64,000 nucleotides of DNA, from IMG/VR virus record IMGVR_UViG_3300044712_000851, positions 32,885 to 96,884 of that record; one strand, given 5' to 3'. A program made the position numbers and the translations under genes. This DNA is from a virus (Duplodnaviria; Heunggongvirae; Uroviricota; Caudoviricetes). The notes under the pieces are model-generated. The model saw nothing but the letters and a program-made list of their open reading frames with translations. It searched no databases and had not been told where the DNA came from. Positions 31,365-33,414 of this stretch are shown here, in pieces; the first letter of the stretch is position 1, and each line of letters opens with the position of its first letter.

Positions 31365-31602
31365 AATCCATTACTATGTGGTTGTCATAGTCTTTTCTTA
31401 TTGATCTTGATGTGTTGAAAAATTCTTGATTCCCTATCTTCCAAGTATTTGAGTCAATACTACTTGTCATTATATCTGGAACTAAAACATATATTTTTTC
31501 TGGTTTTCTCAATAGGGTTGTAACAGAAAAACCAATCCCAAGACCAACCAACAACCCTAAAAATGTTAGAAAAATTTTGTTCTTCATATAGTTAAGTACC
31601 AC
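31336..31602 (-). CDS. small membrane/secreted protein
   Basis: N-terminal hydrophobic segment. Confidence 0.4.
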   Translation of the reverse strand: MVLNYMKNKIFLTFLGLLVGLGIGFSVTTLLRKPEKIYVLVPDIMTSSIDSNTWKIGNQEFFNTSRSIRKDYDNHIVMDFEFTSKDKN

Positions 31603-33188
31603 TGTGGTAATTCTAATAGTTTAGTCTCCATTATATTATCAACCATAGCCATAGGTCCTTCGATTGCCATTTTAACAGCCGAAGTAACCAAAGCAGAATT
31701 ATCCAAAGTTTCTGGTTTAATAATTGCTACAGGAATACCATTTTCCTCATAAGCCTCTTTGACCAAATTATCTTCATGGTGATAAGGATCATAATCTATA
31801 ATTACACAAGCTTTTGGTTTTGGTACGTTTGGATTTGCTTGATGGAACTGTTCTATTCTCAAAGACAAAGGACCAGTGTTGTGTCCACCATCAGTGACAT
31901 GAATATCAACATCTGCACCGAATCTACGAGCATTTGGATATAGTGCAAAACAGTCAGTACCTCCACCCATTGTTATACCAAAGAGTCGTGCTTTGAAAGC
32001 ATCGGCAACGAAGTCCTCAGGTAGTGGAAGTTCCATACCTCGAATATCGTATATACCCCAGTTGAAATTCTCTTGTGGATTTTTAACTAACTCAGCTATC
32101 ATTGCACCTTTTTGTTTTGCAAACTCAAGGGTAGCATTCATGGAACCAGAGGCATCGATCATCAAATATACTTTTCCAATGTCTCCAACTTGTTCTTTTC
32201 TAACTTCGGCACGAGTAGCCTGAAGCATTTTCTTTACATCAGAATCAACTTTGCTTTCAAAGGCTTGCAGTCTATCTAGAGCGTTTTTAGCAGTCTTTAT
32301 TTTCTCTTCATAGAGTGCTGCAACCTCGGCATCTTTTAATATACCAGCATCTTCAAATGTCTTTCTTGCGATAACAGCCTGATCACCAGTTGCACGTTCA
32401 AGTAAGGCAACCGCGATGACAGGAGAAATCTTTTTACCGACTCTAGATAATTCTGCTAAAGCACCAATAAATGGTAATTTTTGTTTTCTTATCTCTTTGG
32501 CAATATCAAGGTCATCCAATACTGAGAAGTCGTAACTCCTCTTTTCGTATTCAATCTTTCTGTCTTTTTGATTCCATCTCAAAATAGAAGCTGCTTCATC
32601 TGTTGGGTTAAGATGCAATTTAATATACATCTTTTGTACTTGATTCTTTAGACCAGCACGAACAATACCGCGAAGCATGTCTGGATTAAGTTCCCTATAT
32701 TTAAGATATTTTGATACAGCTGTTCTTAAGGCATTTGGAAAGTGTCTACTTAGATTGAAGTAACCACCTACACTCCATTTTCTACCCTCAAATTCAGTAA
32801 TACGTGCTACCAATTTTGGCTCTAGCATTTGAATAGCCGCTGCTGATACATATCTAAGATTTGGTCTATTGTATTTTGAGCCTGGAGAAAAAGGCATACC
32901 ATCGGCAGTTGAAAGTGCATTGATGTATGCAGTCATAACCTTTAAGTCTTTATTTGCGTTTTGATCACGGAAGACATAGGAAGTTAAACGAGCTAAAAAG
33001 TTAGGATCGTTTACAGTAAGTGGGGCAAGAGCATTTAATATCTCAGTAAGGCGGTCTTCTTGGAGTTTATTCTTTGACCATAGATGTTGTGCACCAGAGG
33101 TAAGAATTTGAAATACCTTTAGCCTATCTTGATTGCTCAAGTATGGAAGTGATGCGTTTTCTTCGATTGTATTTACACTTGTAGTCAT
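31584..33188 (-). CDS. Ro60/Rsr-like protein (TROVE-like N-terminal region plus C-terminal vWA)
   Basis: C-terminal vWA with MIDAS DASGSM and a GGGTDCFALYP motif like Ro60 AGGTDCSLPM; 534 aa, close to Rsr length; a tRNA-like ncRNA lies directly upstream. Confidence 0.5.
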   Translation of the reverse strand: MTTSVNTIEENASLPYLSNQDRLKVFQILTSGAQHLWSKNKLQEDRLTEILNALAPLTVNDPNFLARLTSYVFRDQNANKDLKVMTAYINALSTADGMPFSPGSKYNRPNLRYVSAAAIQMLEPKLVARITEFEGRKWSVGGYFNLSRHFPNALRTAVSKYLKYRELNPDMLRGIVRAGLKNQVQKMYIKLHLNPTDEAASILRWNQKDRKIEYEKRSYDFSVLDDLDIAKEIRKQKLPFIGALAELSRVGKKISPVIAVALLERATGDQAVIARKTFEDAGILKDAEVAALYEEKIKTAKNALDRLQAFESKVDSDVKKMLQATRAEVRKEQVGDIGKVYLMIDASGSMNATLEFAKQKGAMIAELVKNPQENFNWGIYDIRGMELPLPEDFVADAFKARLFGITMGGGTDCFALYPNARRFGADVDIHVTDGGHNTGPLSLRIEQFHQANPNVPKPKACVIIDYDPYHHEDNLVKEAYEENGIPVAIIKPETLDNSALVTSAVKMAIEGPMAMVDNIMETKLLELPQWYLTI

Positions 33189-33249
33189 ATTCGTTTTTAA
33201 AGTCTTTAATGTCTAAGTGGCTATAACTTTATGCGTTTTTTACTAGCCT

Positions 33250-33345
33250 CCCACGTGTGGAAGGCCCAGGAGTCGAACCTGGAATGAGCTTTCGCTCACT
33301 GATTCTACAGATCAGCGTATTTGCCGTTTGCTTGTATGTTAAATC
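33250..33345 (-). ncRNA. tRNA-Tyr mimic lacking a 5' acceptor strand and D-arm (Y RNA-like candidate)
   Basis: T-arm CCAGG-TTCGACT-CCTGG, long variable hairpin GAGC-GAAA-GCTC, anticodon arm CTGAT-CTGTAGA-ATCAG (GTA) like tRNA-Tyr at 43265; no complementary 5' acceptor found; preceded by the TACAAGCA motif. Confidence 0.4.
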
Positions 33346-33370
33346 CTGCGAGACACTTTAAACTTTATAG

Positions 33371-33414
33371 TTCTGCCTCTAAGTGGTGTATAAATTATCA
33401 CCCTAAGGGGCAGA
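33371..33414 (-). other. extended hairpin CTGCCTCTAAG-TGGTG-TATAAATTA-TCACC-CTTAGGGGCAG
   Basis: 11-bp outer stem plus 4-bp inner stem, between the tRNA mimic and the HNH gene. Confidence 0.4.

What the first reader, a model, noticed from the sequence alone, without database searches (positions are those of the whole stretch)
31584..33414. Ro60/Rsr-like TROVE+vWA protein with an adjacent tRNA-Tyr mimic: a candidate phage Y RNA–Ro module
The 534-aa protein ends in a vWA domain whose MIDAS region (DASGSM...GGGTDCFALYP...VTDGGHN) resembles Ro60 (DVSASM...AGGTDCSLPM...FTDNETF). Its length matches bacterial Rsr. Immediately 5' on the same strand is an RNA element with a perfect T-arm, a tRNA-Tyr-like anticodon arm (identical loop CTGTAGA to the genuine tRNA-Tyr at 43265) and a long variable hairpin. 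It has no D-arm, and no complementary 5' acceptor strand exists within 300 nt. Bacterial Y RNAs are tRNA-like mimics encoded next to rsr. A phage copy beside a roughly 40-gene tRNA array would be notable.
Basis: partly seen in the sequence, partly recalled or inferred. Interest (0 to 1): 0.8.

Follow-up and report, generated by a model that had tools for sequence, protein, structure and literature searches.

The report
Phage Ro60-like protein with tRNA-mimic RNAs
An uncultured phage encodes a very divergent relative of the Ro60 RNA-binding ring protein, and just upstream sit six small RNAs that share one conserved bulged stem joined to tRNA-shaped modules, a new version of the known Ro–Y RNA partnership.

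The parts
31584..33188 (-). Gene for a 534-aa divergent Ro60-like protein: an N-terminal helical TROVE-like ring followed by a C-terminal vWA domain with a complete MIDAS motif.
33199..33366 (-). An open Y-like RNA. Basal stem 33366-33351 pairs with 33214-33199. The internal loop is CGC (33350-33348) opposite ACUU (33218-33215). Upper stem 33346-33338 pairs with 33227-33219. UACAAGC lies at 33336-33330. The module is a circularly permuted tRNA-Tyr mimic: anticodon arm 33315-33299, variable arm 33298-33285, T arm 33282-33266, closed acceptor hairpin 33265-33246. It ends 10 nt before the ATG.
   Evidence: Model R1 aligns 33360-33203 over its full length, 25 bits, E 2e-4. Found by the relaxed detector. 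L003:2770-2891 has the same topology, with a covarying acceptor stem and the same loop (G/A)CACGU.
33463..33601 (-). Unit E4. An open Y-like RNA whose module is a long GC-rich hairpin (CCCCCUCC...GGGGGGAG).
   Evidence: The same module class occurs in L027, L021, L017 and L060.
34215..34341 (-). Unit E3. An open Y-like RNA enclosing a complete tRNA cloverleaf with anticodon loop CUUUGGA (Gln-like).
   Evidence: Rfam tRNA, 57.4 bits, at 34247-34313. R1 scores 111 bits, but E3 is part of R1's training alignment A5. Strict detector.
34564..34684 (-). Unit E2b. A tRNA-Thr(UGU)-like RNA with a normal 7-bp acceptor stem and a closed Y stem (34662-34611) inserted in the D loop.
   Evidence: Rfam tRNA, 55.8 bits, with a 50-nt insert. 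R2 scores 37.9 bits, E 1.5e-5. Fold.
34690..34886 (-). Unit E2a (probable). A tRNA-Phe(GAA)-like RNA with acceptor CCCCUGU/GCAGGGG. A degenerate closed Y stem with a large loop lies between the 5' acceptor strand and the D arm. UACAAGC is at 34764-34758.
   Evidence: Rfam tRNA positions 8-63 at 34697-34752. Fold. Not detected by R2, so this unit rests on weaker evidence.
34893..35029 (-). Unit E1. A tRNA-like RNA with a 7-bp acceptor stem, D arm and T arm. A closed Y stem (34992-34940) sits in the variable-arm position and is followed by a second anticodon-like hairpin.
   Evidence: Rfam tRNA, 42.5 bits, with a 76-nt insert. R2 scores 36 bits, E 3.7e-5. The same class occurs in L002, L021, L035, L036 and L039.
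35043..35414 (-). Conserved 123-aa ORF of unknown function. It ends 13 nt before unit E1.
   Evidence: Homologs in 48 of 92 loci, all on the same strand, directly upstream of the units or the gene.
33620..34201 (-). HNH endonuclease gene lying between units E3 and E4.
   Evidence: Pfam HNH, E 1e-9. Homologs in 24 of 92 loci, at variable positions.
25816..26670 (-). Conserved 284-aa partner gene. In most loci it lies immediately downstream of the Ro-like gene. Here a roughly 5-kb insert displaces it.

Best explanation
The locus most likely encodes a phage Ro-Y RNA-type ribonucleoprotein system. The 534-aa protein is a divergent Ro60-family ring: a TROVE-like helical repeat closed by a vWA/MIDAS domain. 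Six small RNAs are encoded just upstream, downstream of the tRNA array and on the same strand. Each carries the same roughly 45-nt protein-binding stem. That stem consists of a basal helix, an asymmetric internal loop (5' C-N-C, 3' ACUU), a 9-10-bp upper helix and an apical UACAAGC.

I infer that the Ro-like protein binds this stem, as Ro60 binds the conserved bulged stem of Y RNAs. I also infer that the variable module attached to the stem is the effector part. In five of the six units that module is tRNA-shaped.

The stem comes in two topologies. In open units (E3, E4, E5) the RNA ends form the stem and the module is enclosed, as in YrlA. E5 is a circularly permuted tRNA-Tyr mimic with a closed 7-bp acceptor hairpin. 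In closed units (E1, E2a, E2b) the stem is a hairpin arm grafted into a tRNA-like RNA. The graft sites are the variable arm, the D loop and the acceptor/D junction. I would expect at least the variable arm and the D loop to tolerate extra nucleotides (my own knowledge of tRNA structure, not tested). These RNAs keep normal acceptor ends and can probably be cut out of the tRNA-array transcript by RNase P and RNase Z.

The RNP would then present tRNA-shaped surfaces tethered to the Ro ring. Those surfaces could recruit or sequester host tRNA/RNA-handling enzymes, by analogy with PNPase in RYPER and in phiLo. Alternatively they could act as decoys for tRNA-targeting host defences.

Shown: the fold and homology of the protein; the existence, conservation, covariation, strand specificity and synteny of the RNA stem; the tRNA-likeness of the modules. 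Inferred: transcription and processing, protein-RNA binding, and the downstream function.
For: Protein.
- The AlphaFold2 model has pLDDT 83.9.
- The Foldseek top 11 hits are all Ro60/TROVE over the full length, E 5e-9 to 5e-7. vWA-only hits start at E 2e-4.
- hhalign of A1 against A2 gives probability 100, E 6e-59.
- The A2 profile hits human Ro60 at E 1.5e-14 and phiLo TROVE at E 3e-14, covering both the helical and the vWA parts.
- The MIDAS residues are invariant.

RNA.
- The motif pair ACAAGC...ACTT[AG]G occurs 72 times on the gene strand and 6 times on the opposite strand in the 93 loci held at that point (L001, the window's own contig, included).
- The strict structural detector gives 89 versus 0 in 92 loci.
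- Cognate 5'/3' halves pair at 8 or more of 9 positions in 27 of 49 elements, against 99 of 2294 non-cognate combinations. The basal stem pairs 8/8 in 24 of 49, against 70 of 2294.
- RNAalifold on 16 units recovers both stem helices, and 29 of 31 pairs show compensatory changes.
- Pair counts are 90.7% paired against 61.4% in shuffles (0 of 500 shuffles as high) and 31-48% when the pairing is slid out of register.
- Model R2, trained without window sequences, hits only 34662-34611 and 34992-34940 in the whole window. In 85 loci it gives 47 hits, all on the gene strand, 28 of them not in the training set.
- In the window, all six TACAAGC-bearing units lie within 1.8 kb immediately upstream of the gene.
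- A distant homolog (25-30% identity) in the 595-kb phage LR756511 has at least seven clear units, among ten upstream ACUUGG sites, that carry the variant motif UACAAAC...ACUUGG.

Precedent. YrlA lies next to Ro60, on the same strand, with a T-arm, closed-acceptor, D-arm layout. In phiLo, phiRo60 binds Yrl1 and Yrl2, which are encoded upstream of its gene, and also binds host PNPase. Bas63 gp130 is a Ro60-like protein next to tRNA genes.
Against: - There are no expression or binding data.
- Pfam TROVE (PF05731) is not matched by the protein or by any relative tested.
- No Rfam Y-RNA-type family is matched at E<=10.
- The YrlA GNCGAA motif is not conserved in this family.
- Three other genes (the 123-aa ORF, the HNH gene and p284) are also syntenic, and any of them could be the RNA's true partner.
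- Units were detected in only about half of the homolog loci. Many of those loci are truncated and the detectors are insensitive: only 2 of the 6 window units pass the strict rule.
- The anticodon arm of E5 is not in the MFE structure. The proposed fold is 4-6 kcal/mol above the MFE.
- E2a is degenerate.
Confidence: 0.72

Rival explanations
1. The conserved stem is an RNA-processing signal for phage tRNAs and has no link to the Ro-like protein. Examples would be an RNase III-type leader-trailer duplex or a maturation arm. The enclosed or host tRNA-like parts would be real decoding tRNAs, released or used as such.
For: Many open units enclose complete cloverleaves. Some end in ACCA and are called as tRNAs by ARAGORN or Rfam, for example L007 2865-2943 tRNA-Tyr, L021 tRNA-Phe and L035 tRNA-Asn. 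Closed units have normal 7-bp acceptor stems. The units lie next to a tRNA array.
Against: Conserved single-stranded motifs (UACAAGC, ACUU) persist across very divergent phages, which a generic dsRNA-processing site would not require. Several units carry non-tRNA modules or permuted modules with closed acceptors, and these cannot be decoding tRNAs. The window units duplicate anticodons already present in the array: Tyr GUA, Gln UUG, Thr UGU and Phe GAA. None of the roughly 37 ordinary tRNAs in the window carries the stem. The units are tightly syntenic with the Ro-like gene, and the motif variant tracks the protein clade.
Confidence: 0.12
2. The stem is a small mobile or intron-like insertion element that has spread into tRNA genes, possibly mobilised by the neighbouring HNH endonuclease. 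It would either be excised from the RNA or be neutral.
For: The same roughly 50-nt hairpin is found at different positions of different tRNA scaffolds: variable arm, D loop and acceptor/D junction. An HNH endonuclease gene lies inside the array and accompanies the locus in 24 of 92 loci, at variable positions.
Against: The hairpin is far too small for a group I or II intron, and it has no bulge-helix-bulge geometry. The host is bacterial, because the array contains a genuine tmRNA. Open units cannot be introns. The sequence motifs and both helices are under purifying and compensatory selection. Every one of 89 + 47 detected copies lies on the gene strand near the Ro-like gene, with no scattered copies.
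Confidence: 0.06
3. E5 is mainly a cis-acting 5' leader of the Ro-like mRNA. It would serve for autoregulation or RNase protection rather than as a separate small RNA.
For: E5 ends 10 nt before the ATG, and its basal 3' strand abuts the ribosome-binding region. In several loci the last unit also directly abuts the start codon.
Against: Units also occur far upstream, in arrays of up to about ten, downstream of the gene in several loci (L011, L042, L049, L053, L058, L062), and inside tRNA-like RNAs. This does not exclude an additional autoregulatory role for the proximal unit.
Confidence: 0.07
4. The element is an inert tRNA-Tyr gene fragment, or an attP-type 3' tRNA remnant.
For: It contains the 3' two-thirds of a tRNA-Tyr-like sequence with the same anticodon loop as the genuine gene.
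Against: The acceptor is closed by a complementary strand. The flanking stem is conserved with covariation in dozens of loci. L003 has the same permuted topology with compensatory acceptor changes. The fold has a z-score of -5.6.
Confidence: 0.02

Closest known systems
Bacterial and mycobacteriophage Rsr (Ro60) with YrlA Y RNAs (Chen et al. 2014, PMC4201824)
   Same: A ring-shaped Ro60-family protein with a vWA domain. The RNAs are encoded next to the gene on the same strand. A terminal stem carries a conserved internal-loop motif. The effector module mimics tRNA, with the order T arm, closed acceptor stem-loop, D side. A 7-bp closed acceptor occurs as in M. smegmatis YrlA, which RNase P cleaves.
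   Different: The protein is not detected by Pfam TROVE. The RNAs are not detected by Rfam. The conserved motif is UACAAGC/ACUU rather than GNCGAAN0-1G. The anticodon arm is retained, and the stem leaves the tRNA body at the acceptor end, the D loop or the variable region instead of replacing the anticodon arm. Arrays hold up to six to ten units. The inverse topology, with the stem inserted as an arm into a tRNA that keeps free acceptor ends, is not mentioned in the YrlA and phiLo passages I read or in the papers my five searches returned.
Thermus phage phiLo phiRo60 with Yrl1/Yrl2 (NAR 2025, PMC12135203; PDB 9l5y, 9kop)
   Different: About 11% identity in the structural alignment. phiLo has two RNAs with a CGAA motif, and no tRNA mimicry was mentioned in the passages I read. 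Binding to the RNAs and to host PNPase is shown experimentally there and is untested here.
Deinococcus radiodurans Rsr-Yrn1-PNPase (RYPER)
   Different: No PNPase or other effector has been identified here. The modules are far more tRNA-like and more numerous.
E. coli phage Bas63 gp130 (PhageMaP preprint, PMC11482910)
   Same: A structurally Ro60-like phage protein encoded beside a run of tRNA genes. The authors suspected some of those genes are Y RNAs. It counters the Ppl defence system.
   Different: tblastn of the phage collection with the window protein or with P0225 found only LR756511, so no homology to gp130 is detectable at that level. The Bas63 RNAs were not analysed.
Circularly permuted and split tRNA genes (Cyanidioschyzon merolae, Nanoarchaeota) and two-piece/permuted tmRNA
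   Same: tRNA-shaped RNAs whose gene order is circularly permuted relative to the canonical cloverleaf.
   Different: Those RNAs mature into ordinary tRNA or tmRNA through BHB splicing or processing. Here the host is bacterial, there is no BHB motif, and the permutation point is occupied by a conserved protein-binding-type stem. (This comparison rests on my own knowledge.)

Membership tests
Ro60 / Rsr (TROVE + vWA) protein family | Helical-repeat (TROVE/HEAT) ring followed by a vWA domain, seen as fold similarity over the whole chain. | tested here: met
   [not shown]
Ro60 / Rsr (TROVE + vWA) protein family | Match to the Pfam TROVE domain model (PF05731). | tested here: not met
   No TROVE hit for the query at E<=1, for 43 family members at E<=0.1, or for 10 distant relatives. 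Two distant relatives give only weak vWA_Ro60 (PF25045) hits.
Ro60 / Rsr (TROVE + vWA) protein family | Sequence homology to bona fide Ro60 proteins. | tested here: met
   The link is indirect. A1 against A2 by hhalign gives probability 100, E 6e-59. The A2 profile against PDB gives human Ro60 E 1.5e-14, phiLo TROVE protein E 3e-14 (profile positions 23-408), Xenopus Ro E 3.5e-9 and Rsr E 4e-6. The direct query and the A1 profile against PDB give no hit.
Ro60 / Rsr (TROVE + vWA) protein family | vWA domain with a MIDAS motif (DxSxS...T...D). | tested here: met
   D345, S347, S349, T411 and D433 are invariant in 43 sequences.
Ro60 / Rsr (TROVE + vWA) protein family | Binds Y RNA on the outer ring surface and single-stranded RNA ends in the central cavity. 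| not testable with these tools
   Requires biochemistry or structural work.
Y RNA / YrlA family | Encoded close to the Ro60 gene on the same strand. | tested here: met
   Six units lie within 1.8 kb upstream in the window. There are 89 strict hits and 47 CM hits in related loci, all on the gene strand.
Y RNA / YrlA family | Long stem formed by the RNA termini, with a conserved bulge or internal loop that serves as the Ro-binding site. | tested here: met
   The structure is met for the open units: two covarying helices flank a conserved internal loop. Ro binding itself is not tested. Closed units have the same stem, but it is not at the termini.
Y RNA / YrlA family | Conserved GNCGAAN0-1G (bacterial) or GGUCCGA (vertebrate) motif in the 5' strand. 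| tested here: not met
   The window units read YCNCGCA (for example GUCUCGCA), which is only reminiscent of the motif. Other loci read CUCUA, CCCCC, CUCAC and CCCAC. The conserved motifs in this family are UACAAGC and ACUU.
Y RNA / YrlA family | tRNA-like effector domain with T arm, closed acceptor stem-loop and D arm, with the Ro stem in the anticodon-arm position. | tested here: inconclusive
   The order T arm, closed acceptor, D side is present in E5, L003, L011, L042 and L033. However, an anticodon arm is retained, and the stem leaves from the D loop, the variable region or the acceptor end instead.
Y RNA / YrlA family | Match to a curated covariance model. | tested here: not met
   An Rfam 15 E-value scan of 31000-36000 at E<=10 and gathering-threshold scans of the window and 10 loci return only tRNA and tmRNA.
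   Neither ARAGORN nor Rfam calls it. The acceptor is closed by the loop ACACGU, and the order of parts is permuted.

The most novel reading that the evidence does not exclude
The conserved stem is a portable Ro-docking arm that phages have grafted onto tRNA scaffolds at sites expected to tolerate extra nucleotides: the variable arm, the D loop and the acceptor end. This would create a previously undescribed class of Ro-tethered, correctly L-shaped tRNA mimics. Some have free acceptor ends with an encoded CCA, while E5 could become a nicked, chargeable tRNA-Tyr after RNase P cleavage. The resulting RNP would act on the host tRNA world, for example as anticodon-specific decoys or sensors against tRNA-cleaving defence nucleases, or as a way to bring the Ro ring to tRNA-binding enzymes or the ribosome. 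That would make it a new anti-defence or translation-control mechanism, not a routine RNA quality-control module.
Probability: 0.25. Interest if true: 0.88.

Novelty: new variant of a known kind. Interest (0 to 1): 0.7.

Why it matters
Ro60-Y RNA particles are conserved from bacteria to humans, yet their function is still poorly understood. The partner of the tRNA-like domain of bacterial Y RNAs is unknown. This locus adds four things:
- A large, phage-restricted Ro60-like clade that domain databases miss. It has more than 400 detectable relatives and almost none in 185,579 species genomes.
- A new Y-like RNA family with a clearly defined, strongly covarying protein-binding-type stem.
- Natural "domain-swap experiments", in which that stem is combined with full tRNAs, three kinds of permuted tRNA mimic and non-tRNA hairpins.
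- tRNA-like RNAs that carry the stem as an extra arm.

Together these make the question "what does the tRNA-like part of a Y RNA do?" directly testable. They also link it to phage tRNA arrays and, through Bas63 gp130, possibly to counter-defence. In addition, the work flags a source of mis-annotation: several "tRNAs with long insertions" in phage tRNA arrays are probably Ro-partner RNAs.

Tried and rejected
- Direct family searches of the protein against Pfam, PHROGs, NCBIfam, PADLOC and PDB sequences, and the A1 profile against PDB, gave nothing useful.
- blastn and tblastn against 50,697 phage records gave only one distant hit, LR756511.
- The Rfam E-value scan found no Y-RNA family.
- Covariance model R1 (stem plus full tRNA) is dominated by its tRNA part and also hits ordinary tRNAs. 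It is used only as weak support for E5.
- An open-unit stem-only model was not built, because I judged that such a model's hit-length limit would probably exclude 100-nt module insertions (my own assumption, not tested). A scripted detector with strand and shuffle controls was used instead.
- The RNA-to-protein association test failed. A narrow closed-unit pattern scanned over IMG/VR gave 7 loci. None was supported by R2 and none encoded a Ro-like protein. This agrees with my rough estimate of about 6 chance matches (assuming a collection of roughly 100 Gb), so the test is uninformative.
- Other TACAAGC sites in the window (63731, 63078, 62669, 59052, 28158) lie in coding sequence and lack the stem.
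- The readings as archaeal BHB introns or permuted tRNA genes, as an attP remnant, and as a plain tRNA pseudogene were considered and rejected. The reasons are given under the rival explanations.
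Full report
**Observation**

The minus strand carries a 534-aa ORF at 31584-33188. Upstream on the same strand are three tRNA-like arms:
- a 5-bp anticodon-type stem with loop CUGUAGA (33315-33299);
- a GAAA-capped variable hairpin (33298-33285);
- a perfect T arm, CCAGG-UUCGACU-CCUGG (33282-33266).

The anticodon loop is identical to that of the genuine tRNA-Tyr at 43254-43338.

The 3' acceptor strand GCCUUCC (33265-33259) does have a partner. 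It pairs perfectly with GGGAGGC (33252-33246), just downstream, across the loop ACACGU. The element is therefore not a tRNA that lost its 5' half. It is a circularly permuted tRNA-Tyr look-alike with a closed acceptor stem. The 231 nt upstream of the ATG fold with a z-score of -5.6.

**The protein**

No curated library recognises it. Pfam gives only a sub-threshold VWA_2 match at E 0.13, and PHROGs, NCBIfam, PADLOC and PDB sequences give nothing.

It nevertheless belongs to a large family of 520-550-aa proteins from metagenomes and viral contigs. A word-indexed search found 201 hits. An exhaustive profile search found 415 at E<=1e-3. The family is essentially absent from cellular genomes: only one MAG contig turned up among 185,579 species genomes.

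An AlphaFold2 model built on 43 homologs has pLDDT 83.9 and pTM 0.64.
- In Foldseek against the PDB, the first eleven hits are all Ro60/TROVE structures aligned over the full length. They include a TROVE-domain crystal structure (9kop), Thermus phage phiLo Ro60, Xenopus Ro and human Ro60, with E 5e-9 to 5e-7 and TM 0.47-0.55. vWA-only hits follow, starting at E 2e-4.

A sequence-level bridge also exists. The family profile (A1) aligns to a profile of its distant relatives (A2) with probability 100 and E 6e-59. The A2 profile hits human Ro60 (E 1.5e-14), the phiLo TROVE protein (E 3e-14, covering both the helical and the vWA parts), Xenopus Ro (E 3.5e-9) and Rsr (E 4e-6).

The MIDAS residues D345, S347, S349, T411 and D433 are invariant.

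I conclude that this is a genuine but very divergent Ro60-superfamily protein. Pfam TROVE itself is never matched.

**The RNA is one of six units sharing a conserved stem**

I compared the upstream regions of homologous genes in 14 viral and 78 metagenomic loci. The comparison showed two short conserved motifs, (U/C)ACAAGC and (N)ACUU(A/G)G. They bracket variable inserts and are themselves flanked by complementary sequences.

The common architecture runs 5' to 3' as follows: basal helix, C-N-C, 9-10-bp upper helix, UACAAGC, variable module, upper helix 3' strand, ACUU, basal helix 3' strand.

The statistics are clear.
- The motif pair occurs 72 times on the gene strand and 6 times on the other strand.
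- A stricter rule that also requires both helices gives 89 versus 0 in 447 kb.
- Among 49 elements defined by motifs alone, cognate 5' and 3' halves form at least 8 of 9 upper-stem pairs in 27 cases, against 99 of 2294 non-cognate combinations. They form 8 of 8 basal pairs in 24 cases, against 70 of 2294. Twenty distinct stem sequences are represented.
- On a MAFFT alignment of 16 units, RNAalifold recovers both helices plus the D, anticodon and T arms. Compensatory changes occur in 29 of 31 pairs.
- The pair count is 90.7% against 61.4% in shuffles (0 of 500 as high) and 31-48% when the pairing is slid out of register. One caveat applies: these 16 units had been pre-selected for upper-stem pairing. 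The basal helix was not used in that selection.

**Two topologies**

*Open units.* The RNA termini form the stem and the module is enclosed. The modules fall into four types:
- (A) complete tRNA cloverleaves, several of them ending in ACCA;
- (B) permuted tRNA mimics ordered T arm, closed acceptor, D arm, anticodon arm;
- (C) permuted mimics ordered anticodon arm, variable arm, T arm, closed acceptor, D-stem 5' strand;
- (D) non-tRNA hairpins, including a recurrent GC-rich one.

*Closed units.* The same stem is a roughly 50-nt hairpin, with the order reversed: upper 3' strand, ACUU, basal hairpin, CNC, upper 5' strand, UACAAGC. It is inserted into an otherwise complete tRNA-like RNA with a normal 7-bp acceptor stem, most often in the variable-arm position. 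Rfam scores these as full-length tRNAs carrying 50-80-nt insertions.

Type B is the circular permutation of the variable-arm class.

A covariance model of the closed stem (R2) was built only from non-window sequences. Across the whole 64-kb window and both strands it finds exactly two significant hits, 34662-34611 (37.9 bits) and 34992-34940 (36 bits). In 85 related loci it finds 47 hits, all on the gene strand, and 28 of them were not in the training set.

**Window map, minus strand, 5' to 3'**
- A conserved 123-aa ORF (35414-35043).
- E1 (35029-34893): closed stem in the variable-arm position.
- E2a (34886-34690): degenerate closed stem between the acceptor and the D arm, Phe-like anticodon.
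- E2b (34684-34564): closed stem in the D loop, Thr-like anticodon.
- A 220-nt spacer.
- E3 (34341-34215): open unit with a full Gln-like cloverleaf.
- An HNH gene (34201-33620).
- E4 (33601-33463): open unit with the GC-rich hairpin module.
- A small hairpin carrying ACUUAG (33415-33371).
- E5 (33366-33199): open unit with the permuted Tyr mimic.
- The Ro-like gene, starting 10 nt after E5.

All six TACAAGC-bearing units lie within this 1.8 kb. The relaxed open-unit detector finds only E3, E4 and E5 on this strand, one chance hit on the other strand, and 0.08 hits per shuffled window. The remaining TACAAGC sites lie in coding sequence and have no stems.

E5's counterpart in L003 has the same topology. 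Its acceptor stem is entirely different in sequence but still complementary (CUCCGGC/GCCGGAG), and its loop is nearly the same, GCACGU.

The proposed tRNA-like fold of E5 is 4-6 kcal/mol above the MFE. The MFE contains every helix except the anticodon stem.

**Breadth and synteny**

Units were detected in at least 45 of 92 homolog loci. Many of the remaining loci are short contig ends. The strict detector is also insensitive, since it catches only 2 of the 6 window units.

A distant homolog (25-30% identity) in the 595-kb phage LR756511 has ten ACUUGG sites upstream on the gene strand. At least seven of them are clear units with the variant motif UACAAAC...ACUUGG. The RNA-protein association is therefore old, and the motif varies with the protein clade.

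Three genes travel with the Ro-like gene: the 123-aa ORF (48 loci), a 284-aa protein (48 loci, usually immediately downstream) and the HNH endonuclease (24 loci, variable position). None of them could be assigned a function.

The array contains a genuine tmRNA (106.8 bits), so the host is bacterial. The phage has no close cultured relative.

**Mechanism**

By analogy with established Ro biology, I propose that the Ro-like ring binds the conserved bulged stem and that the variable, mostly tRNA-shaped module is the effector part. The analogies are these:
- Ro60 binds a conserved bulged stem of Y RNAs.
- Bacterial YrlA has a tRNA-like module ordered T arm, closed acceptor, D arm.
- M. smegmatis YrlA has a 7-bp acceptor that RNase P cleaves.
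- phiLo phiRo60 binds two upstream-encoded Y-like RNAs and host PNPase.

Closed units can be released from the tRNA-array transcript by ordinary tRNA end-processing. Open units need the stem ends to be defined in some other way.

The graft sites include the variable arm and the variable part of the D loop. These are the places where tRNAs are known to accommodate extra nucleotides (my own knowledge), which suggests that the L-shape is preserved.

What the tethered tRNA mimics do remains an inference. They might recruit or sequester a host tRNA/RNA enzyme, or they might act as decoys for tRNA-targeting defences. The only phenotypic hint in the literature concerns Bas63 gp130, a structurally Ro60-like protein beside tRNA genes that counters the Ppl defence system. 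It shares no BLAST-detectable similarity with this family.

**Comparison with known systems and novelty**

The pairing of a Ro60 homolog with adjacent tRNA-mimicking Y-like RNAs is known in bacteria and in phages: mycobacteriophages, CcrColossus, Bacillus phage G and phiLo. The category is therefore not new.

The following points are new, as far as the five literature searches I ran and the Rfam scans show:
- the protein clade, which is invisible to TROVE models;
- the RNA family, which has different conserved motifs and no Rfam match;
- tandem arrays of up to six to ten units;
- retention of an anticodon arm, with several different exit points for the stem;
- the inverse "stem-as-an-arm-of-a-tRNA" topology.

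I class it as a new variant of a known kind and score interest at 0.7.

Noticed in passing
window 26830-31602 (-): A roughly 5-kb block separates the Ro-like gene from its usual downstream partner p284. It encodes an 88-aa membrane-like protein, a second vWA protein (342 aa, phrog_26613), a 117-aa ORF, a ThiF/E1-like protein (226 aa), a ubiquitin-like protein (78 aa, Ub-Mut7C), and 503-aa and 224-aa ORFs. It may be a phage ubiquitin-like conjugation cassette.
   Followed up: partly
window 33620-34201 (-): An HNH endonuclease gene lies inside the Y-like RNA array. Homologs with 45-47% identity accompany the Ro-like gene in 24 of 92 loci, at variable positions. It is unclear whether it is a functional partner or a resident homing endonuclease.
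   Followed up: partly
window 35043-35414 (-): A conserved 123-aa ORF ends 13 nt before the first RNA unit. Homologs occur in 48 of 92 loci, always directly upstream of the units or the gene. It has no family or PDB match.
   Followed up: partly
[not shown]
   Followed up: yes
window 33371-33415 (-): A hairpin (-19 kcal/mol) carries ACUUAG and basal-stem-like pairing but lacks UACAAGC. The terminator scan also flags it. It could be a degenerate seventh unit or a terminator after E4.
   Followed up: partly
window 34342-34563 (-): A roughly 220-nt spacer between units E2b and E3 has no recognised RNA and no convincing ORF.
   Followed up: no
window 36750-37067 (-): A genuine tmRNA (Rfam 106.8 bits) lies inside the phage tRNA array. 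The tag peptide predicted by ARAGORN (EISKSLLKCQPLEKLLSV) looks atypical to me compared with bacterial tags I know, which usually end in -ALAA (my own knowledge, not checked here).
   Followed up: partly
window 38046-38116 (-): Rfam calls an additional tRNA (50 bits) that ARAGORN did not report.
   Followed up: no
L094 (LR756511.1 281759-291138, reverse complement), positions 1-3900: The 595-kb uncultured huge phage has ten ACUUGG sites upstream of its distant Ro-like gene. At least seven are clear units with the variant motif UACAAAC...ACUUGG. Some of them enclose full tRNA cloverleaves.
   Followed up: partly
window 62669-63731 (-): Three coding sequences contain GGCTACAAGC at similar positions. 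They may be a small paralogous gene family and are unrelated to the RNA units.
   Followed up: no
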